A DNA stretch of 64,000 nt from an uncultured delta proteobacterium (GCA_963716725.1 CAVQUB010000009.1:288001-352000), one strand, 5' to 3'; numbered from the stretch's first letter, positions 1 through 19,525 are shown. Notes: generated by a model from the letters alone, not told the origin. Translations and numbers: made by a program.

Positions 1-767
1 TTGGCCTCGGCCTCGCTGGCGCGCGCCAGAGCGAAGCCGTCGGGGCCCAGAGCGATGGCATCGACCAGCTCGCGCGCGCTCTCTCGTTCGTGGAGGCGGC
101 GACCGGCGCAGAGCTCCCAGAGCACCACGGCAGCGGCGTACACGTCGGCGCGACCGTCGATGTCGCGCAGCTCGAGCTGCTCGGGCGCCATGTACGCGAT
201 CTTGCCCTTCAGTTCACCGATTCGGGTGGTCTGGGCGCGCCGAGCCGCCTTGGCCACACCGAGGTCGAGGAGGCGCACGACGCCGTCTTCGCCCACGATC
301 ACGTTTTGCGGAGAGACGTCTCGGTGCACGATGTGCAATGATTTTCCGCGATCGTCCCGGGCCTCGTGGATCGCGTGCAGACCCTCGAGCATGTCGATGC
401 CGACGGCCACCACCACCGCCAGGGGGATCAGCGTCTGGGTCTGTCGCGCCTTGGAAATGAGCCACGACAGCGGGACGCCGGCGACATACTCGAGGACCAG
501 CAGCAGATCGCTGCCCTCGGCGACGACGTCGAGCAGCGGGACCACGTTCGAGTGGCGCACGCGCGCCGTGAGCCGGGCCTCGTCGAGTAGCATGGCAACC
601 AGCTCCGGATCGCGGGCGTACTCCCGGCGCAGGCGCTTGACCGCGACGATGCACGAGTGACCCAGGGGCCCGCACTGGCGGGCCAGGTGAACGGTCGCCA
701 TGCCGCCCGAGCCGATGGCGTCGCCCAGCACGTAGCGTCCGCCGGCGAAGGGGGGGTCCGAGATCAC
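1..767 (-). CDS. Hanks-type Ser/Thr protein kinase (5' part; runs off window start)
   Basis: Manual translation from GTG at 767 (GTGA overlap with upstream stop): RYVLGDAIGSGGMATVHLA...VAVK...HRDVSPQN...DLG. Missing from the ORF track because it is truncated. Confidence 0.9.
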   Translation of the reverse strand, partial: MISDPPFAGGRYVLGDAIGSGGMATVHLARQCGPLGHSCIVAVKRLRREYARDPELVAMLLDEARLTARVRHSNVVPLLDVVAEGSDLLLVLEYVAGVPLSWLISKARQTQTLIPLAVVVAVGIDMLEGLHAIHEARDDRGKSLHIVHRDVSPQNVIVGEDGVVRLLDLGVAKAARRAQTTRIGELKGKIAYMAPEQLELRDIDGRADVYAAAVVLWELCAGRRLHERESARELVDAIALGPDGFALARASEAEA

Positions 768-2080
768 TTGCGCCCCTTCCGAGGTCGGGGCAGGCCGTAG
801 GTCTCGATCCGATCGATCAAGGTCCGCCGCGGGATGCCGAGGACGCTCGCCGTGCGAGTCTGGTTGCCGGCGCAACGTTCGAGCGCGTCCAAGATGCGCT
901 TCTTCTCCAGATCATCGAGCTCAGTCTTGAGGTTCGGAGCGCCCGCGCGAGTCGTGCGGCTCGGAGTCGCGAGCACCGTTCGGGGAAGGTGAGCGGTTTC
1001 GAGCCGGGAGCCGGGGCACAGGAGCACCGCGCACTCGATGGTGTGGCGGAGCTCGCGGACGTTGCCCGGCCAGGCGTAGCTCTGCAGGGCCAGCAGGAAC
1101 GCCGAGCAAAGCTCCGGGGCGGGCCGCCGGAGCTGTTCGGCGACCTCGTCTACGAAGGTGCGAGACAGCTCCTCGATTTCGTCACCCCGCTCCCGGAGCG
1201 AAGGCACCCTCACCACCACGCCGCACAAGCGATGAAAGAGATCCGCGCGAAAGTCTCCGGCGCCGACCATCGCCTCGAGATTGCGATTCGTCGCTGCCAC
1301 GAAGCGGACGTCGAAGGTGCGCGGACGGAGCGATCCGATCCGGAAGATCTCCTTGCACTCGAGGGCGCGAAGCAGCTTGGCCTGGGTCGGCTTCGGCAGC
1401 TCGCCCACCTCGTCCAAGAACACTGTGCCGCCATGCGCCGCCTCGAGCAGCCCAGGCTTGGGGTTGTTGGCGCCGGTGAACGCGCCACGCTCATAGCCGA
1501 AGAGCTCGCTCTCGAGCAGCTGCTCCGGCAGCGCCGCACAGTTGATGCGCAGAAAGGGAGCGCCCGCCCGCGGAGACGCCGCGTGGAGTCGATCCGCCAT
1601 CACCTCTTTGCCGACGCCGGTCTCGCCCACGAGCGTGACGGGGATGTTGCCTTTCGCGACGCGGTCGATCAGCTCGCGCACCCCCGACATGCTCTCGGCC
1701 GCGACCTCGACGGGCTTGCTCTCGGCTTGCACACACTTGAGCAGGACCAGAGCGTCGCCGATCTCGATGACGGCGCCGCAGGGAATGGGCGTGCGCGTGT
1801 GCGCGGTGAGCGAGCGACCCGCGAGCCGCGTGCCATTCACGCTGCCCAGGTCTTCGATGGCCGGTTTGGGCCCGAAGCTCAAGCGCACATGGCTGCGCGA
1901 CACGGAAGGGTGCGGCACCCGAACGTCGGCGGTCGAGTCGCGGCCGATCACGATGGCGCCGTTCATCGAGAGCGGCGTCGCTAGATAGCCGCCGTCCCAA
2001 TACGCGATGACCTGCCCCGCATCTGCTTTGACGCTGACGCGGGCGCGACGGGTGGTCTGGTCAATCCCCCGGGACATCAC
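764..2080 (-). CDS. FHA-domain sigma54-dependent transcriptional activator (FHA-AAA+-Fis HTH)
   Basis: FHA motifs IGR..., SRSH, DLGSVNGT; Walker A GETGVGKE; ESELFGYERGAFTGA; FLDEVGE; WPGNVREL; C-terminal GNQTRTASVLGIPRRTL HTH. Confidence 0.95.
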   Translation of the reverse strand: MMSRGIDQTTRRARVSVKADAGQVIAYWDGGYLATPLSMNGAIVIGRDSTADVRVPHPSVSRSHVRLSFGPKPAIEDLGSVNGTRLAGRSLTAHTRTPIPCGAVIEIGDALVLLKCVQAESKPVEVAAESMSGVRELIDRVAKGNIPVTLVGETGVGKEVMADRLHAASPRAGAPFLRINCAALPEQLLESELFGYERGAFTGANNPKPGLLEAAHGGTVFLDEVGELPKPTQAKLLRALECKEIFRIGSLRPRTFDVRFVAATNRNLEAMVGAGDFRADLFHRLCGVVVRVPSLRERGDEIEELSRTFVDEVAEQLRRPAPELCSAFLLALQSYAWPGNVRELRHTIECAVLLCPGSRLETAHLPRTVLATPSRTTRAGAPNLKTELDDLEKKRILDALERCAGNQTRTASVLGIPRRTLIDRIETYGLPRPRKGRK

Positions 2081-2092
2081 AGGTCCGGGATT

Positions 2093-2935
2093 CTACCGCA
2101 CGAGTACAGGCGGCGACTTGCGCGTTGTCATCAGCGTTTGCCGGTTGTGCGGCTTCTGCACAACCTGTCCGCCGGCTCGGTCCTCGGTGAGCAGCAAGTA
2201 GACGGCGCTGCCCAGCGCAATCGCGGAAAGACCGAGGAACGTACCGGCGGCAATCAGGCGAGGCTGAGTCGCTGCCGAGCCCCCCTCGGGCCCGCGGTGA
2301 GCCATCCACGCCATGTAGCCGCCGGCGGCCAGCCCCGTGAGCCCGCCGGCCAAGAGCGCGTGCGTGAGCGCGCGATCTGGGTGGGTCGCCCCCCGAGCCC
2401 GACCCCGCGCCCGACGCCGGGCCGTGGTCGCCTTGGCTCGCGCTTCCCCTGGAACCATCGTGGCGCTCAGGACCATCGCGAGGCTCCGGGGCGGATCGCC
2501 CCGGAGGACCGTCACCCTGGCGCGGCCCCGCCTGCCGCCTGCGGCTCGCACCACGATCTCGTGCTCGCCTGGGTCGAGCCGCATTTCTTGCGGAGAAACC
2601 CGGATGGCGGTCCGGATCCCGTCCAAGAAGATCTCCGCGTTCGTGACCTCGACGCCGGCGGCGTCGGTCACTTGCAGGCGCAACGCCGGCACCGACAGCT
2701 CCAGGTCGCGGAACCAGGCCGCGCACTCGGCTCGGATCGGCTCGGGGCAGGCCGGGGCGGCGCAGGTCAGCGCGGCCTCCCGCGCGAGCACCAGCTCCTC
2801 GACGCGGGTGTGGCGCTGCGTGCGCGCGTGCGCCTCGATGCAGACACGCTTGAGGGGCACCGGGTCGCCGCTCTGCGCTGACGCGATCATCGGAACGAAA
2901 GCCAGCGCGACTGCGACTGCGACTCTCGTAACCAT
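2093..2935 (-). CDS. Secreted/membrane PEGA-like protein
   Basis: ATG 2935, signal peptide (MVTRVAVAVALAFVPMIASA), Cys-containing helical region, LDPGEHEIVVRA PEGA-like motif, two C-terminal hydrophobic segments; the last ~25 aa look like run-on. Confidence 0.65.
   Translation of the reverse strand: MVTRVAVAVALAFVPMIASAQSGDPVPLKRVCIEAHARTQRHTRVEELVLAREAALTCAAPACPEPIRAECAAWFRDLELSVPALRLQVTDAAGVEVTNAEIFLDGIRTAIRVSPQEMRLDPGEHEIVVRAAGGRRGRARVTVLRGDPPRSLAMVLSATMVPGEARAKATTARRRARGRARGATHPDRALTHALLAGGLTGLAAGGYMAWMAHRGPEGGSAATQPRLIAAGTFLGLSAIALGSAVYLLLTEDRAGGQVVQKPHNRQTLMTTRKSPPVLVR
2143..2167. promoter_or_regulatory. Palindrome GGTTGTGC-N7-GCACAACC; candidate activator-binding site / left copy of a 21-bp inverted repeat
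   Basis: Perfect 8-7-8 palindrome ~65 bp upstream of the activator start; 2147-2167 matches the reverse complement of 3334-3354 at 20/21 nt. Confidence 0.6.
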
Positions 2936-3028
2936 TGCAGCGCTCTCTCTTCCACAATCGAAGCGTCGTTGGCAAGCGCGCGGAAACGACCTGCCGGAAC
3001 GGCAGCTCCGCGCTGCGACGAGATCTGA

Positions 3029-3044
3029 CGGCACGCGTCTTGCG
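3029..3044 (+). promoter_or_regulatory. Sigma54 (-24/-12) promoter
   Basis: CGGCACGCGTCTTGCG: GG(3030-31)-N10-GC(3042-43), nearly identical to TGGCACG-N4-TTGC; predicted +1 about 3055. Confidence 0.8.
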
Positions 3045-3056
3045 CTACACGTTCAC

Positions 3057-3323
3057 ATGCGTGAGTCCTTCGTTCGTTGTTTGCTGATCCTCCGCGAGAT
3101 CCCCGAAGCCCCCGGTCGCGTCGACACGCTCACGCTCGCAGCGTTCCTGGAGCAGCGAGGCTTCCAGGTGTCGCGCCGAACCCTGCAACGAGATCTCGAA
3201 AGCATGTCGCGGGTGCTGCCCTTGGTCTGCGACGACCGCAAGAAGCCCTACGGCTGGTCCTGGTGCCCCGGGGTCGACGTTTCGCTCCCCCGAGTGGTGC
3301 GGCGGGGGGCAAGAGCTGCGTGA
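3057..3323 (+). CDS. Stand-alone winged-HTH protein resembling the N-terminal DNA-binding domain of WYL regulators (88 aa)
   Basis: MRESFVRCLLILREIPEAPGRVDTLTLAAFLEQRGFQVSRRTLQRDLESMSRVLPLVCDDRKKPYGWSW; the R-T-x-x-R-D-L and KPYGWSW patterns match WYL-protein HTHs; no WYL domain follows. Confidence 0.75.
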   Translation: MRESFVRCLLILREIPEAPGRVDTLTLAAFLEQRGFQVSRRTLQRDLESMSRVLPLVCDDRKKPYGWSWCPGVDVSLPRVVRRGARAA

Positions 3324-3333
3324 GTTGTGCGAG

Positions 3334-3354
3334 CAGGTTGTGCAGAAGACGCAC
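3334..3354. promoter_or_regulatory. Right copy of 21-bp inverted repeat (CAGGTTGTGCAGAAGACGCAC)
   Basis: 20/21 identity to the reverse complement of 2147-2167; extra GTTGTGC half-site at 3324-3330. Confidence 0.6.
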
Positions 3355-3522
3355 TTCGGCCCGGCGGCGCCGGCGCCCTGCCCCGGGGCCGGCCGGCCCG
3401 ACCTGCCCGACCCGCCCGACCGGGGGCGGGCGCGGGTGAGCGCTGGATCGCGGCGATTTCCCGTCGCGCGGCGGCCCGGGCGCTAACTCGCCCCTCGCTT
3501 CGCAAGCGCGTAAGCTGCACGC

Positions 3523-5344
3523 ATGATCTGGGTGCGTCGGGTGATCGTGGGCGTCAGCGTGACCCTCGCTTCGGCGGTGGCGTGTTCGAGCGATCCGGAG
3601 GTCACCAAGCACGAGGGGACGGGCGGCAAGCCGGGTGATGCGGGCTTCGACTCCACGATCTGCAGCATCGGGCAGTTCGTGTGCGGCGGAGACGTCGCAA
3701 AGCCCTGCCTCGGCAGCGGTCAGTTCGGCGATCCCGTCGACTGCAAGGCCGACGGCAAGACCTGCGCTGCTCCCTACGGCTGCGTGACGTGCTTGCCCGC
3801 GCAGCAGAGCTGCGAAGGCGGCGTCGGCAAGTACTGCAAGAACGACGGCAGCGCCTGGGAGACCTTCGAGTGCGACGCCGCCCAAGGCATGAAGTGCGAG
3901 CCAAAGGGCTGCACCGGGAGTTGCACGCCGCCAAGTCTGTCCAACAGCTACCTGGGCTGCGACTACTTCCCCACGGTCACGCTCAACCCGGTGTGGAGCG
4001 GCTTCGATTTCGCAGTGGCCGTCGCCAACGCCGGCAGTGGGACCTCCAACGTCGTCGTGACCCGCGGCTCCACCGAGGTGAAGAAGACGACCGTCGGCGC
4101 GGGCAAGCTCGAGGTGATCACCCTGCCCTGGGTCAGCGAGCTCAAGGGCGGCGACGTCGATGCCTGTCAGCTGCCGCCCGATCCGGGCGCGACGCGCGTG
4201 GTCAAGGGCGGCGCCTACCGGCTCCGCAGCGATAGCCCCGTCACCGTGTACCAACTGTCACCGTTGAGATACGAGATCAAACCCGCGCCGAGCGCCTGCC
4301 CGGTGGGAGCCAAGTGTCCGGGCGGATTCGGCTGCGGATTGCCTGGCGTTCTCCAACGACGCCACGCTGCTCCTGCCGTCGACGACGTTGACTGGGAACT
4401 ACACGACGCTGGCCTGGCCCAGCGCACCGAACCGCGCGGGCTTCGTCGCCATCACGGCAACGCGAGACGGCACCGATGTGCAGCTCCTGGGCAAGGGCGA
4501 CTTCGCCGCCGGGGCCGGCATCGACGCCGCGGGCAATGGCAAGGTCAGCCTCAATCGCGGCGACGTGCTCGAGGTCATCGCCAAGCACGACGGGCCCTCG
4601 GGCCAGTACGGCGCGGACATCAGCGGCACGCGTCTCAAGGCAAACCAGCCGGTTCAGGTGATCGCGGGGCATTCGTGCGCCAACATTCCCACGGCGACCA
4701 CCGACGCCTGCGACCACATCGAGCACTCGATGTTGCCCATCGAGACGCTGGGTAAAGAGTACTATGTGACCTTTCCAGCGGCGCTGGCGAGCCAATCTCC
4801 CCACGTGGTTCGCATTGTCGCCATCGAGCCGAACACCAAGCTGAGCTTCGATCCGCCCAGCGTCTCAGCGGACAAGACCCTGTCGCCGAGCGACCCACCG
4901 CTCGAGCTCTCGGCGGTGACCAGCGACTTCAAGGTCAGCTCCGACAAGGCCTTCATGGTCGCCCAGTACATGCAGGGCCAGGGCTCGGTACCGAGTGGTT
5001 CGGGCGATCCCAGCTTGGCGCTCTCGGTCCCGGCCGCCCAGTACCGCAAATCGTACACCTTCATCGCCAGCGCGAGCTACGACACCAACTTCGTGAACGT
5101 GATCGCCAAGACTGGCTCAACGGTGACCCTCGACGGCACGGCGGTCCCCGCGGCGAGCTTCACTGCCATCGGGTCGAGCGGGTTTTCCGTGGCTCGGGTC
5201 GAGCTGCCGCTGGGCAGCGAGGTGCATGCCATCGAGTCCGGCTCGGTGTTCGGGGTGATGGTGTACGGCTACGGGCGCTACACCAGCTACATGTATGCCG
5301 GTGGCCTCGACCTGACTCCAATCACGATCCCGCCAGTGTTCTGA
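3523..5344 (+). CDS. IgGFc-binding-domain lipoprotein, frameshifted at ~4327
   Basis: Lipobox AVAC, Cys-rich N-terminus, SYLGCDYFP, then DCLAFSNDATLLLP, DHIEHSMLPIETLG, GDPSL, YGYGRYTSYMYAGG in the next frame; removing one T at 4327/4328 joins ORFs 3523-4755 and 4388-5344. Confidence 0.8.
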
Positions 5345-5467
5345 TCCGAGACACGTCGCGCCGAGCTGGTGCCGAAGACGAGTCGTTTGGGCCTGACGCC
5401 CCGAGTTCGGATATAGTTGGGCTAGTTGGGCCACGGTTCGCCGAGCGCGACCGCAAGGAGGCTTTCA

Positions 5468-7399
5468 ATGTCGAAGCAAGCAGAGAGTCTTCTCACCACC
5501 ACCAAGTTGAGTCGGGTAGTTCGCAGCACGCTGCTCAGCGGGTTGATGCTCGCCGGCGCGGCGGCCTTCGCCTGCGGTGGCTCGGGCGACGAGGGCACCG
5601 ACGGCACGGGCGGCAGCGGAGCCAAGGGCAGCGGCGGCAGCGCTGCTGACGGCGGCGGCCTCGGCGGCGCCGCGGGCTACGCGGGTGCGGCGGGCTACGC
5701 GGGCGCGGCGGCCTCGGGCGGCAACGGCGCGAGCACCGGCACGGGTGGCTCGGGAGCGAACGGCGGAACCGGCGCTGGCGGCTCCGGTTGCGTGCCCAAG
5801 ACCTGCGCCGACAAGAAGGCCACCTGCGGCACCATCGACGACGGCTGCAGTGGGACCGTCTCGTGTGGAACCTGTCCCGGCGGTCAGATCTGCTCGAGCT
5901 CCACTCAGACCTGCGCTCCACCCTCCAACGAGTGCAAGGCCATCGGCGCCGAATGCGGTGTGATCAACGACGCGTGCGGCGCCAGCGTCGACTGCGGCTC
6001 GTGCCCCGCGGGTCAGGTCTGCAACGGCGCCACGCGCAAGTGCGGCCCCTGCGTGCCCGCCAAGTGCGAGGGCGACAAGTGCGGCACCTTGCCCGACGGC
6101 TGCGGTGGCAACATCACCTGCACGGCCTGCGGCAGCGGCCAGGTCTGCGACGCGGTCAGCAGCAAGTGCATCAACTGTGCAAAGACGACCTGTCAGGCCG
6201 AAAAGGTCGAGTGCGGGACGATCAGCGACAAATGCGGGGCGGCGCTCAACTGCGGCGCCTGCCAGGCAGGGTTCACGTGCAACGGCGGCCAGTGCTTGCC
6301 GACGCCTCCGCCCACCGAGTGCAAGAACCAGGGCAAGAACTGCGGAACCATCACCAACAGCTGCACCGGTCAGCAGGTCGCCTGCGGCAACTGTCTGCCC
6401 GGCGAGATTTGCTCGAACAACCTCTGCGTGGCCTGCATTCCAAAGTCGTGCGCCGAGCTCAAGAAGACCTGCGGCCCAGCTGACGATGGTTGTGGCGGGC
6501 AGCTTCAGTGCGGCGACTGCACCACCAACCAGAAGTGCTACGGCGGCAACTGCTGCTCGCCGACGTCCTGCGCAGCGCAGGGCAAGAACTGCGGCAAGAT
6601 CTCCGACGGCTGCGGCGGCCAACTCGACTGCGGGACCTGCATCAACAACGAGAAGTGCGGCGGCGGAGGCACGGCCAACGTGTGCTCGCCCTGCGTGCCG
6701 CAGAGCTGCGCCGCGCAAGGCAAGAACTGTGGGGATCACAGCGACGGCTGCGGCGGCAAGGTGACCTGTGGCGACTGCACCACCAACGAGACCTGCACGA
6801 ACAACGGCAAGTGCTGCACGCCCACCAGCTGCGCCGCGCAAGGCAAGGACTGCGGCAAGATCTCCGACGGCTGCGGCGGGCAACTCGACTGCGGGACCTG
6901 CTCCAACGGCGAGCTGTGCGGGGGCTCCGGCACCGCCAACGTCTGCGCGCCCTGTGTGGCCAAGACCTGCTCGGCGCTGGGCAAGCAGTGCGGCACCACC
7001 AGCGACGGCTGCGGGGCGCAAATCGACTGTGGCCCCTGCCCCACCGGACAGGTCTGCGCCAACAACCAGTGCTGCTCGCCGACGACCTGCGCCGCCAAGG
7101 GCGCGCAGTGTGGCTCGACGAGCAACGGCTGCGGCGGTCAGCTGGACTGTGGTCCGTGTCCGAGCGGACAGGTCTGCCAAGGCAATCAGTGCTGCCAGCC
7201 CCAGACCTGCACGCAGATCGGCAAGCAGTGCGGAAGCTGGCCCAATGGTTGCGGCAGCCAAGTCACTTGCGGGCCCTGCCCCGGCGGACAGGTCTGCCTG
7301 ACCAACGGCACCTGTTGCGTTCCGCTGAGCTGCACCGGCAAGTGCGGCTACAGCGGATCGGATGGTTGTGGCGGCCAGGTCGTCTGCCCGCCCTGCTGA
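5468..7399 (+). CDS. Cys-rich repeat lipoprotein (about 13 C..CG..DGCG..CG.C units)
   Basis: AAGGAGG RBS before ATG 5468; lipobox AFAC; Gly-rich linker; tandem ~40-45 aa Cys repeats typical of myxobacteria. Confidence 0.85.
   Translation: MSKQAESLLTTTKLSRVVRSTLLSGLMLAGAAAFACGGSGDEGTDGTGGSGAKGSGGSAADGGGLGGAAGYAGAAGYAGAAASGGNGASTGTGGSGANGGTGAGGSGCVPKTCADKKATCGTIDDGCSGTVSCGTCPGGQICSSSTQTCAPPSNECKAIGAECGVINDACGASVDCGSCPAGQVCNGATRKCGPCVPAKCEGDKCGTLPDGCGGNITCTACGSGQVCDAVSSKCINCAKTTCQAEKVECGTISDKCGAALNCGACQAGFTCNGGQCLPTPPPTECKNQGKNCGTITNSCTGQQVACGNCLPGEICSNNLCVACIPKSCAELKKTCGPADDGCGGQLQCGDCTTNQKCYGGNCCSPTSCAAQGKNCGKISDGCGGQLDCGTCINNEKCGGGGTANVCSPCVPQSCAAQGKNCGDHSDGCGGKVTCGDCTTNETCTNNGKCCTPTSCAAQGKDCGKISDGCGGQLDCGTCSNGELCGGSGTANVCAPCVAKTCSALGKQCGTTSDGCGAQIDCGPCPTGQVCANNQCCSPTTCAAKGAQCGSTSNGCGGQLDCGPCPSGQVCQGNQCCQPQTCTQIGKQCGSWPNGCGSQVTCGPCPGGQVCLTNGTCCVPLSCTGKCGYSGSDGCGGQVVCPPC
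5788..7396 (+). repeat. Intragenic Cys-repeat array including a recent ~261-bp duplication
   Basis: Units starting at 6551 and 6812 are nearly identical (CC.PTSCAAQGK.CGKISDGCGGQLDCGTC.N.E.CGG.GTANVC.PC). Confidence 0.8.
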
Positions 7400-16293: not shown

Positions 16294-17481
16294 CTAGGGG
16301 CAGGTGACGAACGTGGTTTCGTACTGAGCGAACAGCGCGCCGGTATCATTGCGAAGCTCGACCCGATACGGGACATCGAGCTGGGGCTGCCAACCGTCCG
16401 GCGAGAACGAGCTGAAGTCCGTGTAGAAGTGCCCCTGCTTCATGGGGTTCTCCTTGCCCGTGCTGACCACGAACACGCGTGCGGCCAGCTTGGGCGTGCT
16501 GGCCTTGCCCTTCTGGACAAACCACACGGTGGGCACAGCGCTCTTCACGTTCAGGCCCGGTCCGGGGTGGGCGACAAAGGCCGGATCGCTGCTCAGCGCC
16601 GTGTACGCCCCGCCGTAGTGCATGTCTGAGCTCGAGCCGCTGGCGCCGAACCAAACGCCGGCACGACCGACGGAGAGCACATTGCGGCGGTGGACCAGGT
16701 TCTGATCATTCTCGAGCGCGTAGCCGTTCACCTGTCCGACCAGGCCATACCCGCCGGCGATCAGCGACGAGCCACAGGCCGTTGCGCCAAGCTTCGTATA
16801 ACACTGCACTGTCGGCGCTGGAGAGTGGCCGAAAGAGTAGTTGAGGATCTTTGCGCACTCTTGCTGGCCTTGAGCCGTCGCGGGATCGACCTGCACCGGC
16901 CCAACGCCGAGCATCCAACGATAGAAGTTCAGCCAGCGCAGCGCCGCGGCTTGACCGCTGTAGGGGACAGTACCGGGATCGCAATTGCCGCCCGTGCCCG
17001 CGATCCATTCCTTGTATCCGCTGACCTTGGCAGCGGCGTACTGCGAGCAAACCTCGGCCTTCTTGCGCTTGGTTGGATCGGAGATCGCCGAAGCAACGCA
17101 GGTGGCGCCCGAGGGCTCCCACCCTGGCGCGCAGACGCACTTGTTGCTGTCGTCGCAGAGCTTGGTGCCGGTACACGACGCGCTGCACGCGACGGGCGCG
17201 CCGCCGCTGCCACCGGTCGACGACGTGCCACCGGTCGACGACGTGCCGCCGGTCGACGACGTGCCACCGGTCGACGACGTGCCACCGGTCGACGACGTGC
17301 CGCCGGTCGACGACGTGCCGCCGGTCGACGACGTGCCTCCAGCGCCGGCGACGGAGCCGCCGCTGCCCGAGCTGCCACCCGACGCGCCTCCGGTACCACC
17401 GGATCCCGCATCGTCGTCGCCGCCCCCGCAAGCGACCGCACCCACCGCGCCAAACACCAACAACGAAAGGCCGATCCGCAT
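16294..17481 (-). CDS. CAP/SCP-like domain lipoprotein with GGTSST linker
   Basis: Lipobox AVAC; EGF-like Cys motif; C.PG......AL...NFYRW.LG...FGH.P...HRRNVL, typical of myxobacterial CAP-like proteins. Confidence 0.7.
   Translation of the reverse strand: MRIGLSLLVFGAVGAVACGGGDDDAGSGGTGGASGGSSGSGGSVAGAGGTSSTGGTSSTGGTSSTGGTSSTGGTSSTGGTSSTGGTSSTGGSGGAPVACSASCTGTKLCDDSNKCVCAPGWEPSGATCVASAISDPTKRKKAEVCSQYAAAKVSGYKEWIAGTGGNCDPGTVPYSGQAAALRWLNFYRWMLGVGPVQVDPATAQGQQECAKILNYSFGHSPAPTVQCYTKLGATACGSSLIAGGYGLVGQVNGYALENDQNLVHRRNVLSVGRAGVWFGASGSSSDMHYGGAYTALSSDPAFVAHPGPGLNVKSAVPTVWFVQKGKASTPKLAARVFVVSTGKENPMKQGHFYTDFSSFSPDGWQPQLDVPYRVELRNDTGALFAQYETTFVTCP
17209..17334. repeat. 18-bp tandem repeat x7 (GCC[A/G]CCGGTCGACGACGT), encodes TSSTGG
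   Basis: Seven contiguous copies with no spacers. Confidence 0.95.
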
Positions 17482-17521
17482 GCGCTCAGTCTGAGCGCAG
17501 CTGCGCGCAGCTTCAAGGGGG

Positions 17522-17950
17522 ACCAAGACCTCTCAGCTGCGAATCCGTGTTTCCTCGCGGCAGAAGGCCGGTCTGAAGCAACGGGCGAGTGCGGCCGGAA
17601 TGAGCGTGTCCGAATGGGTGCTCGCCCTGGCGTTTCCACCCAAGCGAGAGCTGTTTGTACAACTGGCGCGTGAGCTCGGGGCGGGAGAGCGCCGCTCGAC
17701 CAGCCTCGCAGCGCTGCACGACTTCCTCGATAGGCTCGACGCGGACGAGTTCTTCCACGTGCTCGAGGACGCGCCACCAGCACGGCTGCGGAGCCCGGAC
17801 GACGCGATCGTCGCGGCGATGGTCGAGCACGCGGCGTCGCTGAAGCGCGCGCAACGTGTCCGCCTGCGCATGACACCGCAGGCGTCGCGGCTGATCGGGC
17901 GTGCGCCAATCTCCGACGCCCGACGACGCCCGCGCCCGCTCCCCGCCTAG
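17522..17950 (+). pseudogene. Degenerate ribbon-helix-helix (DUF1778-like) antitoxin-type gene
   Basis: In frame upstream of ORF 17600: TKTSQLRIRVSSRQKAGLKQRASAAGMSVSEWVL (RHH pattern), preceded by GGG rather than a start codon; sequence after AAMVEHAA looks like run-on. Confidence 0.55.
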
Positions 17951-19525
17951 CTACCCGCGCCGCCGTCTCAGCGCGAGCGCCGCGATCCCCAGCGCGATCC
18001 ACCACGCCGCTGATCCGGGATTCCGCGATCTGCGCAGGCTGCAACCGCCGCTCTCCGCCTCGACGGTGCCTCCGGCTTCGTGCTCCGGCGGCGCCTCGGT
18101 TTCACCGGGGCTCTGGCAGGCGTCGAGATCCGTGTCGGGCTTGCCGGGACACTGATCGTTCGCGTCGATCACGCCGTCCCCGTCGTCATCGTCGTCGCAA
18201 GCGTCGCCAGCGCCGTCGTGGTCCGTATCGGCCTGGTCGGGGTCGGCGATCTCGGGACACAGGTCGTCCGCGTCGTCGACGCCGTCGCCGTCGGTGTCCG
18301 TCTCGCAGGCGTCGCCGATGCCGTCCTGATCCTGGTCCGACTGATCCGCGTCGGCGACCGTCGGACACACGTCGCTCTCGTCGAGCACGCCGTCGCCATC
18401 GTCGTCGTCGTCACAGGCGTCGCCCTTGCCGTCGGCGTCGGTGTCCGTCTGTTCCGGATCCGGCACCTGTGGGCACACGTCCTTCGTGTCGTCGAAGCCG
18501 TCGCCGTCGTCGTCCGCTTCGCAGGCGTCGCCCTTGCCGTCTTGGTCGGTGTCCGTCTGGGTCGCGTTCTTCGTGGTCGGACAGTTGTCCTTGGCGTCCA
18601 GCACGCCGTCGCCGTCATCGTCGTCGTCGCAGGCGTCGCCCTTCTTGTCCTTGTCCGTGTCCGTCTGGGTCGCGTTCTTCGTGGTCGGACAGTTGTCCTT
18701 GGTGTCGAGGACCTTGTCGCCGTCATCGTCAGTGTCGCAGGCGTCGCCCTTCTTGTCCTTGTCCGTGTCTGTCTGGGTCGCGTTCTTCGTGGTCGGACAG
18801 TTGTCCTTGGTGTCGAGGACCCCGTCACCGTCGTCGTCGGTGTCGCAGGCGTCGCCCTTCTTGTCCTTGTCCGTGTCCGTCTGGCTCGCGTTCTTCGTGG
18901 TCGGACAGTTGTCCTTCGCGTCGACCACGCCGTCGTCGTCTTTGTCCTGGTCGTTACAGGGGCCGGTGCCCGGATCGGTGCCCCACCACTCCCAGTGCCA
19001 GTTCTCGCTGGGCACGGTGCGCTTGAAGCCATACGAGCCCGCGTGCTTCGAGAGCCACGAATAGACTCCGGCAGATGAGGCATTGAGATCGAGCGCGTGG
19101 CCGCTCTGGTGGTTGCTGTAGCCCGGCTTCGCCGCCAGGTTGCAGCTGTTGCAACTGCAGCTCGTGTAGCAGCCGTAGAGATACTGCTGCTGAGCCATGG
19201 TGCGGAAGCCGCTGACCACTCGGATCTGCACGCCCGCCGCCGCAGCGGCCTTGGCCATCTTCATGTAGGCGTTGGCGGTCTTCCACTCGACGTGTTTGCC
19301 GTCGACGGTGACGACCTGAATGCTGAACGCCTTCCCACTCGAGTAGCCGGTCGCCGACGACATGCCACACGAGAGCGTCGACAGCTCTTCACTGACCACG
19401 TCGATGTCTTCGTAGAGCTCGCTCTCGTCGTGGTCGTAGTGGTCGCCGGTCTCTGCGAGACAGCCGCCGAGGACCAACAGGCCGAGGCAGAGCACGAGGC
19501 GGAGCAGACCGAAGACGCGGATCAT
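17951..19525 (-). CDS. M15B (VanY-like) D-Ala-D-Ala carboxypeptidase with TSP3 repeats and MYXO-CTERM
   Basis: [19 protein letters not shown] zinc motifs; DxDxDG..D..DNCP...N..Q.D.D.D..GDAC repeats; C-terminal GGCS...[17 protein letters not shown]. Confidence 0.9.
18150..18950 (-). repeat. 108-bp (36-aa) thrombospondin type-3 repeat array
   Basis: About 4 near-identical plus 3-4 diverged units. Confidence 0.85.

What the first reader, a model, noticed from the sequence alone, without database searches (positions are those of the whole stretch)
1..3354. Kinase - FHA/sigma54 activator module that appears to drive a WYL-less winged-HTH microprotein
Seen: the operon PEGA protein > FHA-bEBP > Ser/Thr kinase is divergent from an 88-aa gene. 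That gene has a near-perfect sigma54 promoter (3029-3044) whose predicted +1 lies ~2 nt before the ATG. Known: FHA domains read phospho-Thr, bEBPs activate sigma54 promoters, and this HTH type normally leads a ~330-aa WYL nucleic-acid-sensing regulator. Inference: a phosphorylation-gated cascade that produces a ligand-independent repressor or a competitor of full-length WYL regulators.
Basis: partly seen in the sequence, partly recalled or inferred. Interest (0 to 1): 0.75.

Follow-up and report, generated by a model that had tools for sequence, protein, structure and literature searches.

The report
Sigma-54-driven stand-alone winged-helix microprotein
A small, conserved 88-residue DNA-binding protein, related to the DNA-binding end of larger WYL-type regulators but lacking their sensor and pairing domains, sits directly behind a conserved sigma-54 promoter, while its link to the neighbouring kinase and activator genes rests on adjacency alone.

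Summary
Window 3057..3323 (+) encodes a real 88-aa winged-helix protein. It has 88-aa homologs at 77-85% identity and dN/dS of 0.15-0.18. Its HTH is homologous to the N-terminus of HTH-WYL-WCX regulators, but its nearest relatives form a WYL-less clade, so it is not a truncation.

The sigma-54 element at 3029-3044 is the only conserved block in otherwise unalignable upstream DNA of three lineages. It leaves about 2 nt before the ATG.

That spacing is a genome-wide class. In G000, 17 of 52 non-coding sigma-54 cores are followed by a long-ORF ATG 12-16 nt later, against 0 of 47 spacing controls. Genus relatives have 24-26 such sites each.

The FHA-EBP and Ser/Thr kinase are confirmed; the "PEGA" label is not.

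The proposed wiring, adjacent kinase/FHA-EBP driving the microprotein, is adjacency only:
- The orthologous loci have a different upstream neighbour and no EBP on their contigs.
- No shared enhancer motif was found.
- Sigma-54 sites are nonetheless enriched near EBP genes in this genome.

The competitor-of-WYL function is untested.

The parts
1..767 (-). N-terminal part of a Ser/Thr protein kinase, last gene of the operon. The gene continues beyond the window start. Likely start is the GTG at 767, overlapping the activator's stop codon by 4 nt.
   Evidence: Pfam Pkinase 1.3e-33. ORF. Whole gene 17307..18875 of the C9 270001-300000 stretch. The same 4-nt overlap and a similar N-terminus occur in the G149 ortholog pair.
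764..2080 (-). FHA-domain sigma-54 enhancer-binding protein, 438 aa: FHA, AAA+ sigma-54 interaction domain with GAFTGA, lid, Fis-type HTH.
   Evidence: Pfam FHA 5.2e-12, Sigma54_activat 1.2e-61, AAA_lid_14 5.1e-21, HTH_8 1.1e-12. GAFTGA seen in the translation. NCBIfam hits only to generic sigma-54 activator models, all below their cut-offs.
2093..2935 (-). First gene of the operon: 280-aa protein with an N-terminal signal-like segment and a hydrophobic C-terminal part.
   Evidence: ORF. No Pfam PEGA hit; CarboxypepD_reg E=0.062. Many 23-39% identical paralogs in genus relatives.
2936..3056 (.). 121-bp divergent intergenic region.
   Evidence: Sequence. No sigma-70-like promoter and no terminator-like site in 2800-3600. 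No inverted repeat of 10 nt or more. A short CTGCCG-gaa-CGGCAG palindrome at 2991-3005 was seen by eye.
3029..3044 (+). Sigma-54 (-24/-12) promoter element cGGCACGcgtcTTGCg. GG at 3030-31, GC at 3042-43.
   Evidence: 10 of 12 consensus positions. Conserved in G028, G149 and L062. The N4 spacing is enriched in non-coding DNA, 52 against 13-18.
3057..3323 (+). 88-aa stand-alone winged-HTH gene of the WYL-regulator HTH lineage, with no WYL and no WCX domain. Predicted leaderless or 2-nt-leader mRNA.
   Evidence: 88-aa homologs. dN/dS 0.15-0.18. AF2 pLDDT 85.6 with H1-b-H2-H3-wing topology. One 151-nt, 100%-identical metatranscriptome contig at 3113-3263 (weak hint only).
3523..5344 (+). Conserved downstream neighbour: lipoprotein with an IgGFc_binding-type domain. 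It is a single 606-aa ORF in relatives. In the window it is split by an apparent +1 frame change near 4330-4340.
   Evidence: Pfam PF17517 2.3e-66 on the G028 ortholog. Synteny. Frame change. Conserved TAAGNT about 6-9 nt before its ATG.

Best explanation
Window 3057..3323 is a functional gene for an 88-residue stand-alone winged-helix DNA-binding protein. It descends from the DNA-binding domain of HTH-WYL-WCX regulators (the BrxR/CapW/PafBC/DriD kind) but belongs to an established lineage that lost the WYL sensor domain.

It is transcribed from a sigma-54 promoter that abuts the start codon. The mRNA therefore has essentially no leader and no Shine-Dalgarno site.

Because sigma-54 promoters are silent without an ATP-hydrolysing enhancer-binding protein, the regulated variable is the amount of the protein, not a ligand bound to it. 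A signal switches an EBP on, the microprotein is made, and it occupies DNA sites through its recognition helix and wing.

The adjacent FHA-EBP, presumably gated by phospho-threonine from its co-operonic Ser/Thr kinase, is the best single candidate for that EBP, but only a candidate.

My odds for each step:
- Real protein-coding gene: 0.97 (shown).
- Functional sigma-54 promoter: 0.8 (inferred from conservation).
- Leaderless translation: 0.7 (inferred from the genome-wide class).
- Adjacent FHA-EBP is the activator: 0.35-0.4 (adjacency only).
- Target is the operator of the full-length WYL paralog: 0.15 (speculative).
For: Real gene:
- Three database homologs of exactly 88 aa, at 85, 81 and 77% identity.
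- The same length and stop position in G028, G149 and L062.
- dN/dS 0.15-0.18 at dS 0.5-1.05.
- No remnant of a lost C-terminal domain downstream.

Fold: AF2 pLDDT 85.6, pTM 0.74, with H1-strand-H2-H3-hairpin wing. Foldseek returns only winged-HTH proteins (PadR, Fur, SmtB, Z-alpha), all with E>=0.02.

Lineage:
- 923 library representatives at E<=1e-3.
- Of the 55 best hits scanned, 16 carry WYL+WCX, 9 carry WCX only and 30 carry neither.
- The family profile hits PafBC, PafC and other WYL structures.
- In a quick tree the gene falls in a 22-row clade (SH-aLRT 85) with no protein of 300 aa or more.

Promoter: the GG-N10-GC element is conserved at -27, -28 and -29 from the ATG in three lineages whose remaining upstream DNA is unalignable.

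Class of leaderless sigma-54 genes:
- In G000, 17 of 52 non-coding sigma-54 cores are followed by a long-ORF ATG at 12-16 nt, against 0 of 47 controls.
- The four genus relatives have 24, 26, 24 and 24 sites, against 0-2 for the reversed pattern and 1-2 for N5 spacing.
- By my eye, 12 of the 22 G000 ORFs start with a signal peptide plus Cys directly at that ATG. That fixes the start codon independently.

Sigma-54 itself: rpoN is present in 4 of 4 genus relatives.

EBP link: 43 EBP cores in G000. Six of 52 sigma-54 cores lie within 2 kb of one, including this site at 1324 bp, where about 1.3 are expected by chance and 0 of 47 controls do so.
Against: - No transcription start or rpoN dependence was measured. 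The only RNA evidence is one 151-nt contig of depth 2 in one metatranscriptome, found with this very stretch.
- rpoN was not found in G000 itself with PF04552 or PF04963. The assembly is 84% complete.
- The element has C instead of T before GG and G instead of A/T after TTGC.
- Genome-wide, the core is no commoner than spacing controls when coding DNA is included: 48 against 48, 32 and 50.
- EBP link: it is not syntenic in G028, L062 or G149. No shared upstream motif was found. No inverted repeat of 10 nt or more lies in the intergenic region.
- DNA binding, oligomeric state and targets are all unknown. The WCX dimerisation domain that full-length relatives use (passages) is missing.
Confidence: 0.6

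Rival explanations
1. The microprotein is sigma-54-dependent, but its activator is one of the roughly 42 other EBPs. The adjacency to the FHA-EBP/kinase operon in this genome results from a rearrangement whose breakpoint lies just upstream of the promoter.
For: - The synteny break lies exactly at the promoter. Downstream genes are conserved in all lineages, upstream genes are not.
- G000 has no ortholog of the G028 membrane kinase; its best match is 44-46% identical.
- No EBP lies on the ortholog contigs.
- G000 has 43 EBP cores and relatives have 35-40 EBP paralogs each.
- No shared enhancer motif was found.
Against: - Sigma-54 sites within 2 kb of an EBP gene are about 4.5-fold over chance in G000.
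- Orthologs of this EBP (65-67% identity) exist in exactly the two genus relatives that carry the orthologous microprotein. Those two may simply be the closest kin.
- The ortholog contigs are short (8.5-28 kb).
Confidence: 0.4
2. The microprotein is a local regulator of the conserved downstream block of secreted proteins (an IgGFc_binding-type lipoprotein and a Cys-rich repeat protein). It has nothing to do with full-length WYL regulators.
For: - The gene, its promoter and the two downstream genes stay together in G000, G028, L062 and G149, while the upstream side changes.
- By my eye, 12 of the 22 members of the sigma-54 leaderless class are secreted lipoproteins, so the regulator shares a regulatory style with envelope genes.
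Against: - The downstream gene has its own conserved -10-like TAAGNT close to its ATG.
- In G028 an oppositely oriented lipoprotein gene is inserted between the two.
- No operator was identified.
- The three lineages belong to one genus, so the synteny may be mere inheritance.
Confidence: 0.3
3. The sigma-54-like element is not a working promoter, and the gene is expressed from some other signal.
For: - Two non-consensus flanking positions.
- Genome-wide core counts equal spacing controls when coding DNA is included.
- rpoN was not found in G000.
Against: - The element is conserved in three lineages within unalignable DNA.
- Strong non-coding enrichment and a fixed distance to ATGs.
- No sigma-70-like site in 2800-3600.
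- rpoN is present in 4 of 4 genus relatives.
Confidence: 0.1
4. The 88-aa ORF is a decaying 5' fragment of a full-length WYL regulator gene.
For: The HTH is homologous to N-termini of 330-350-aa WYL proteins.
Against: - Identical 88-aa length in four other sequences.
- dN/dS 0.15-0.18.
- No WYL or WCX remnant in 2901-3700.
- The nearest relatives are all WYL-less.
Confidence: 0.03

Closest known systems
BrxR / CapW / PafBC / DriD-type HTH-WYL-WCX transcription regulators
   Same: Homologous N-terminal winged HTH. The conserved motifs R-T-(I/L)-Q-R-D-L and K-P-Y-G-W-S-W are shared (consensus). The full-length paralog in the same genome carries Pfam WYL 1.2e-10 and WCX 7e-15. The family profile hits PafBC and PafC structures. 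In BrxR the wHTH is residues 1-94, ending in a cross-over helix (PMC9122601, passages). That is about the size of the short proteins here.
   Different: There is no WYL ligand-sensing domain and no WCX dimerisation domain. Control would come from synthesis via sigma-54 rather than from a ligand. In the papers I searched (listings; passages of PMC9122601) I saw no description of stand-alone HTH relatives.
FHA-domain enhancer-binding proteins paired with Ser/Thr kinases in myxobacteria
   Same: The architecture FHA + AAA+ with GAFTGA + Fis-type HTH, with a kinase gene overlapping by 4 nt. That myxobacteria hold many FHA-EBPs is my recollection (Jelsbak et al. 2005), not read here. High EBP counts in Myxococcota are stated in PMC12316311 (passages).
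   Different: No target is known for this EBP. Its arrangement with the first operon gene varies between relatives.
Leaderless mRNAs from promoters that abut the ORF (Deinococcus-Thermus, actinobacteria; sigma-A-type pexR in myxobacteria)
   Same: The promoter element lies at a fixed short distance from the ATG, leaving 5 nt or less of leader. This is the definition used in PMC12754779 (passage) and the theme of PMC12340547 (abstract only).
   Different: Here the promoter is of the sigma-54 (-24/-12) type. In the two searches made and in the sigma-54 regulon survey PMC12316311 (0 occurrences of 'leaderless' or 'start codon'), I found no description of a sigma-54 leaderless class.
Small stand-alone winged-HTH regulators (PadR-like, ArsR/SmtB, Fur DNA-binding domains)
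   Same: They are the best structural matches of the AF2 model: TM 0.5-0.6, E 0.02-0.2.
   Different: There is no significant sequence relation. Those proteins dimerise through extra helices that are not evident here.

Membership tests
Sigma-54-dependent promoter | GG and GC doublets exactly ten bases apart within a TGGCACG-N4-TTGCW-like element (consensus recalled) | tested here: met
   cGGCACGcgtcTTGCg at 3029-3044 matches 10 of 12 positions. It is conserved in G028, L062 and G149.
Sigma-54-dependent promoter | The organism encodes sigma-54 (rpoN) | tested here: inconclusive
   PF04552 and PF04963 were not found in G000, which is 84% complete. PF04552 was found in 4 of 4 genomes of the same genus.
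Sigma-54-dependent promoter | The organism encodes enhancer-binding proteins with a GAFTGA AAA+ domain | tested here: met
   43 AAA+ cores in G000. The adjacent one shows GAFTGA.
Sigma-54-dependent promoter | Transcription starts about 12 nt after the GC and depends on rpoN and an EBP | not testable with these tools
   Only one 151-nt RNA-library contig lies inside the ORF. Contigs cannot show a start.
HTH-WYL-WCX regulators (BrxR/CapW/PafBC/DriD kind) | N-terminal winged HTH homologous to the family | tested here: met
   44-50% identity to the N-termini of WYL+WCX proteins. 163 library hits at E<=1e-10. wHTH fold.
HTH-WYL-WCX regulators (BrxR/CapW/PafBC/DriD kind) | WYL ligand-binding domain | tested here: not met
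   The protein ends at residue 88. No Pfam, NCBIfam or PADLOC WYL hit. No remnant downstream.
HTH-WYL-WCX regulators (BrxR/CapW/PafBC/DriD kind) | C-terminal WCX dimerisation domain | tested here: not met
   Absent. Some close relatives keep WCX without WYL: P0007, P0008, P0030.
FHA-domain enhancer-binding protein with partner Ser/Thr kinase | FHA + sigma-54 AAA+ domain + DNA-binding HTH in one protein, with a kinase encoded alongside | tested here: met
   Pfam results. The 4-nt gene overlap is conserved in G149.
FHA-domain enhancer-binding protein with partner Ser/Thr kinase | Phospho-threonine-dependent activation, and binding to an enhancer upstream of the target promoter | not testable with these tools
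   No conserved upstream motif was found, and no inverted repeat of 10 nt or more.
PEGA-domain protein (first operon gene) | Match to the Pfam PEGA domain | tested here: not met
   No PEGA hit even at E<=10. The best hit is CarboxypepD_reg at E=0.062.
Leaderless mRNA | 5 nt or less between the transcription start and the start codon, with no Shine-Dalgarno site | tested here: inconclusive
   Only 13 nt lie between TTGC and the ATG. The N-terminus MR(E/D)SF(V/L)RCLL is conserved, so the ATG is the start. The genome-wide class supports it. No start site was mapped.

The most novel reading that the evidence does not exclude
The 88-aa protein is a signal-gated decoy DNA-binding domain. A phosphorylation-controlled EBP switches on leaderless, sigma-54-dependent synthesis of a bare WYL-family wing-helix. 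That protein then occupies, or poisons by mixed assembly through the retained cross-over helix, the operators of the ligand-sensing HTH-WYL-WCX regulator on the tRNA-Pro defence-like island. This would override nucleic-acid sensing with a kinase signal. The short genes placed 33-46 nt upstream of full-length WYL genes in this genus would be the ancestral form of the same antagonist or partner principle.
Probability: 0.1. Interest if true: 0.75.

Novelty: new variant of a known kind. Interest (0 to 1): 0.5.

Why it matters
WYL regulators are studied as ligand-sensing switches of DNA-damage and anti-phage responses. A conserved lineage that keeps only their DNA-binding domain, sometimes encoded directly in front of a full-length WYL gene, would add an unstudied layer (antagonist, partner or independent regulator) to that family.

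This member is controlled by sigma-54, which ties it to the large kinase/EBP signalling repertoire of myxobacteria.

Separately, roughly two dozen genes per genome in this genus have a sigma-54 promoter abutting the start codon, and most encode secreted lipoproteins. This predicts a class of leaderless sigma-54 transcripts that I did not find described. It is directly testable by start-site mapping.

Tried and rejected
- Homodimer prediction of the 88-aa protein: no verdict (score 0.03 against a mark of 0.42). Not counted as evidence either way.
- Word-indexed search for longer relatives: none of 202 candidates at E<=1e-3. The exhaustive search then found many, so one search was a sensitivity failure.
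- Single-sequence PDB search: the only hit below 1e-3 was a TALE repeat protein built from eight sub-threshold repeats. I judged it spurious.
- Foldseek against PDB: no match at E<=1e-3, only generic winged-HTH folds. The fold therefore cannot assign the protein to WYL N-termini; sequence does.
- Search for a shared enhancer in the 220 nt upstream of the three orthologous promoters: shared k-mers were at shuffled expectation.
- Inverted repeats: none of 10 nt or more in the window's intergenic region. The 6-3-6 palindrome CTGCCG-gaa-CGGCAG (2991-3005) and a similar CTGCC-c-GGCAG in G028 were seen by eye. Their spacing differs and G149 lacks them, so I dropped them.
- A CTGCGAC / GCGACGA half-site at 3012-3020 resembles motifs upstream of full-length and tandem-short paralogs. 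It is not conserved in the orthologs and its chance expectation is about 0.03 per region. Dropped as post hoc.
- Sigma-70-type promoter and intrinsic-terminator scans of 2800-3600: none found.
- RNA evidence: one 151-nt exact contig within the ORF in run X1. Runs X2 and X3 gave only 90-95% matches to conserved kinase/EBP parts, from other organisms. This shows neither a start, a strand nor a level.
- Earlier notes of this scan: nothing on record.
- The careful tree search did not finish. The quick tree with SH-aLRT support was used, and many forks are unresolved.

Full report
**What is there**

The window is G000:C9:288001-352000. On the minus strand lie three tightly packed genes.

- A 280-aa protein at 2093..2935 with a signal-like N-terminus.
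- A 438-aa enhancer-binding protein at 764..2080, with FHA (5.2e-12), Sigma54_activat (1.2e-61), AAA_lid_14 and HTH_8 (1.1e-12). GAFTGA is visible in the translation.
- A Ser/Thr kinase (Pkinase 1.3e-33) that runs off the window start.

The kinase most likely starts at the GTG at 767, overlapping the activator's stop by 4 nt. The orthologous pair in G149 has the same overlap and a similar kinase N-terminus.

There is no Pfam PEGA match even at E<=10; the best hit is CarboxypepD_reg at 0.062. There is no NCBIfam match.

A 121-bp intergenic region separates this operon from an ATG at 3057. That ATG opens an 88-codon frame ending at 3323.

**The 88-aa gene is real and is not a truncation**

- The word-indexed protein search found three other proteins of exactly 88 aa, at 85, 81 and 77% identity. 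It also found the window's own product called from a later start (4 hits among 6 candidates).
- The gene has the same length and stop position in G028, G149 and metagenome contig L062.
- Pairwise dN/dS is 0.15-0.18 at dS 0.5-1.05.
- The N-terminus MR(E/D)SF(V/L)RCLL is conserved in orthologs. It is recognisable in paralogs as MSDxFLRYLL. So 3057 is the start codon, not the downstream TTG that one gene caller chose.
- AlphaFold2 with a 148-row alignment gives a confident model (pLDDT 85.6, pTM 0.74). Its topology is helix, strand, helix, helix, beta-hairpin wing, then a weak short C-terminal helix.
- Foldseek finds only generic winged-HTH proteins, with E>=0.02.
- No trace of a lost C-terminal domain lies downstream.

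**Relation to WYL regulators**

Pfam, NCBIfam and PADLOC give no significant family for the 88-aa protein. The exhaustive profile-free search, however, finds 923 cluster representatives at E<=1e-3 and 163 at E<=1e-10.

Of the 55 best hits scanned with Pfam, 16 carry WYL+WCX (about 320-345 aa). Nine carry WCX without WYL (about 170-235 aa). Thirty carry neither, and some of these are clearly contig-end fragments.

A profile of the family hits PafBC, PafC and other solved WYL proteins through the C-terminal part.

In G000 itself there are two paralogs, side by side on contig C6: a 105-aa HTH-only gene, and 46 nt later a 352-aa gene with Pfam WYL (1.2e-10) and WCX (7e-15).

The same "short gene directly upstream of a full-length WYL gene" arrangement recurs in G181 and G149. 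By coordinates it recurs twice in G106.

The short paralogs (90-105 aa) share a C-terminal (L/F)R(D/E/A)(V/L)(V/A)xR(A/V)A helix. The BrxR paper describes the wHTH domain as residues 1-94, ending in a cross-over helix that packs against the other protomer (PMC9122601, passages). The short proteins therefore correspond to a complete wHTH domain.

A quick ML tree of the HTH region (160 rows, 72 columns, many forks unresolved) places the window's protein in a 22-row clade with SH-aLRT 85. That clade contains the genus's short paralogs, HTH-WCX forms and a 278-aa form with an unassigned C-terminus. It contains no protein of 300 aa or more. The full-length partners of the tandem pairs fall elsewhere (support 96).

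**The promoter**

At 3029-3044 the + strand reads cGGCACGcgtcTTGCg, with GG at 3030-31 and GC at 3042-43. This matches 10 of 12 specified positions of the recalled consensus TGGCACG-N4-TTGCW.

The equivalent element is gGGCATGactcTTGCg in G028 and L062, and cGGCACGagtcTTGCg in G149. GG lies at -27, -28 and -29 from the ATG respectively, and the rest of the upstream DNA cannot be aligned.

Genome-wide, the exact core GGCACG-N4-TTGC is no commoner than spacing controls when coding DNA is included: 48 against 48, 32 and 50. In DNA that a crude GC3-periodicity mask flags as non-coding, GGCAYG-N4-TTGC occurs 52 times against 18, 13 and 16 for N3, N5 and N6.

rpoN was not found in G000, which is 84% complete. 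It is present in all 4 other genomes of the genus.

No sigma-70-like promoter or intrinsic terminator was found in 2800-3600.

**The short distance to the ATG is a class, not a quirk**

In G000, 17 of the 52 non-coding sigma-54 cores are followed by the ATG of an ORF of 50 aa or more, starting 12-16 nt after TTGC (mode 13-14). None of the 47 spacing-control sites is.

The pattern GGCAYG-N4-TTGC-N(12-15)-ATG occurs 24, 26, 24 and 24 times in the four genus relatives. The reversed pattern occurs 0-2 times and the N5 spacing 1-2 times.

In a sample of 61 genomes of the phylum, 54 have at least one site. Counts of 9-20 occur in some genomes of the same order, and most others have 0-6.

Of the 22 G000 sites, 12 open (by my eye, no predictor used) with a signal peptide ending in a lipobox-like Cys that begins right at that ATG. 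This fixes the start codon independently of the promoter.

With the C of TTGC at -12, an ATG 13 nt later begins at +3. The predicted leader is therefore 2-3 nt, within the "5 nt or less" definition of leaderless quoted in PMC12754779 (passage).

I did not find such a sigma-54 class described in two literature searches. It is also not in a 2025 survey of sigma-54 regulons, which contains neither "leaderless" nor "start codon" (PMC12316311).

**Is the neighbouring kinase/FHA-EBP the driver?**

This is the weak link.

Against:
- In G028, L062 and G149 the gene divergent from the microprotein is an unrelated 532-aa membrane Ser/Thr kinase (Pfam Pkinase 3.5e-38). It is about 31% identical to the window's kinase.
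- tblastn with the window's EBP finds nothing on the 10.9-kb G028 contig, the 8.5-kb L062 contig, or the whole 28.3-kb G149 contig.
- The EBP's orthologs (65% and 67% identity) lie on other contigs of G028 and G149. The first operon gene is placed differently there.
- Each relative has 35-40 EBP paralogs at E<=1e-60, and G000 has 43 AAA+ cores.
- No k-mer is shared by the three upstream regions above shuffled expectation.
- The window's intergenic region has no inverted repeat of 10 nt or more.

For:
- In G000, 6 of 52 sigma-54 cores lie within 2 kb of an EBP core, this one at 1324 bp. About 1.3 are expected by chance, and 0 of 47 spacing controls do so. So adjacency carries information in this genome.
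- G028 and G149, the two relatives with the orthologous microprotein, are also the two with a close ortholog of the EBP. They may simply be the nearest kin.

I put the adjacent EBP at 0.35-0.4.

**What the microprotein does**

The conserved neighbours are downstream: a lipoprotein with an IgGFc_binding-type domain (PF17517, 2.3e-66) and a Cys-rich repeat protein.

The lipoprotein gene has its own conserved TAAGNT 6-9 nt before its ATG. In G028 an opposite-strand gene is inserted between it and the microprotein gene. The microprotein is therefore probably monocistronic.

G000 holds one full-length WYL family member. It lies on an 8.8-kb segment between two tRNA-Pro(CGG) genes. That segment also encodes an AAA ATPase, a PD-(D/E)XK-FtsK fusion that matches PADLOC SspH models (4.2e-58), and an Uma2 nuclease.

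A bare wHTH of the same lineage could compete for that regulator's operators. This is inference only. The recognition helices are similar, but the motif is conserved family-wide, so specificity cannot be read from it. The oligomeric state is unknown.

**RNA**

One metatranscriptome run holds a single 151-nt contig (depth 2, no mismatches) at 3113-3263, inside the ORF. The run was found with this stretch, and contigs show neither ends nor strand. It is at most a weak hint of expression.

**Verdict**

The gene is a conserved stand-alone member of a WYL-less branch of the WYL-regulator HTH lineage. It sits behind a conserved sigma-54 promoter that predicts a leaderless transcript, one of about two dozen such genes per genome.

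The competitor function is open.

Novelty: a new variant of a known kind. Interest is moderate (0.5).

Noticed in passing
G000 genome-wide, e.g. C3:279388-279417, C8:217172-217201, C15:481406-481435; also genomes G028, G106, G149, G181: A class of sigma-54 promoters abuts start codons. In G000, 17 of 52 non-coding GGCAYG-N4-TTGC cores have a long-ORF ATG 12-16 nt later, against 0 of 47 spacing controls. Genus relatives have 24-26 such sites each, against 0-2 in controls. By eye, 12 of the 22 G000 ORFs begin with a lipoprotein-type signal peptide. This predicts leaderless sigma-54 transcripts. I did not find this described in the searches made.
   Followed up: partly
G000:C6:198723-207645 (L061 2723-11645): An 8.8-kb segment flanked by two tRNA-Pro(CGG) genes. 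It carries an AAA ATPase, a PD-(D/E)XK-FtsK fusion matching PADLOC SspH (4.2e-58), an Uma2 nuclease, a 105-aa HTH-only gene, and 46 nt later a 352-aa HTH-WYL-WCX gene. It looks like an integrated defence-type island with a short-plus-long regulator pair.
   Followed up: partly
L036 (G181:C8), L026 (G149:C112), L002 (G000:C6); by coordinates also G106:C2: A recurrent tandem: a 90-105-aa HTH-only gene lies 33-46 nt upstream of a 342-352-aa WYL regulator gene. The short proteins share a C-terminal (L/F)R(D/E/A)(V/L)(V/A)xR(A/V)A helix. This suggests a conserved two-gene regulator unit.
   Followed up: partly
Library proteins P0007, P0008, P0030, P0032, P0040, P0047, P0048, P0055, P0056: A third architecture in the family: HTH directly joined to WCX with no WYL domain, about 170-235 aa. 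These form their own clades in the quick tree.
   Followed up: no
window 4330-4340: The IgGFc_binding-type lipoprotein gene (3523..5344) changes frame by +1 right after ...CPGGFG. It is one 606-aa ORF in G028, L062 and G149. This is either an assembly error in the MAG or a real pseudogene.
   Followed up: partly
window 3511-3516, with aligned positions in L033 and L034: A conserved TAAG(A/C)T lies 6-9 nt before the ATG of the lipoprotein gene in three lineages. It looks like a -10 element abutting the ORF, so this gene may also be leaderless, from a sigma-70-type promoter. Tandem short HTH genes show a similar TACNNT about 13 nt before their starts.
   Followed up: no
L035 6538-7374 (G106:C2): The closest homolog in G106 (59% identity in the HTH) is 278 aa. 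Its C-terminal part of about 190 aa matches no Pfam family. It is another domain partner for this HTH lineage.
   Followed up: no
window 5426-7399: A 657-aa secreted protein made of many Cys-rich repeats of about 40 aa (C..G..C..C..G..C). It has no Pfam or NCBIfam match and is conserved next to the lipoprotein gene in relatives.
   Followed up: no
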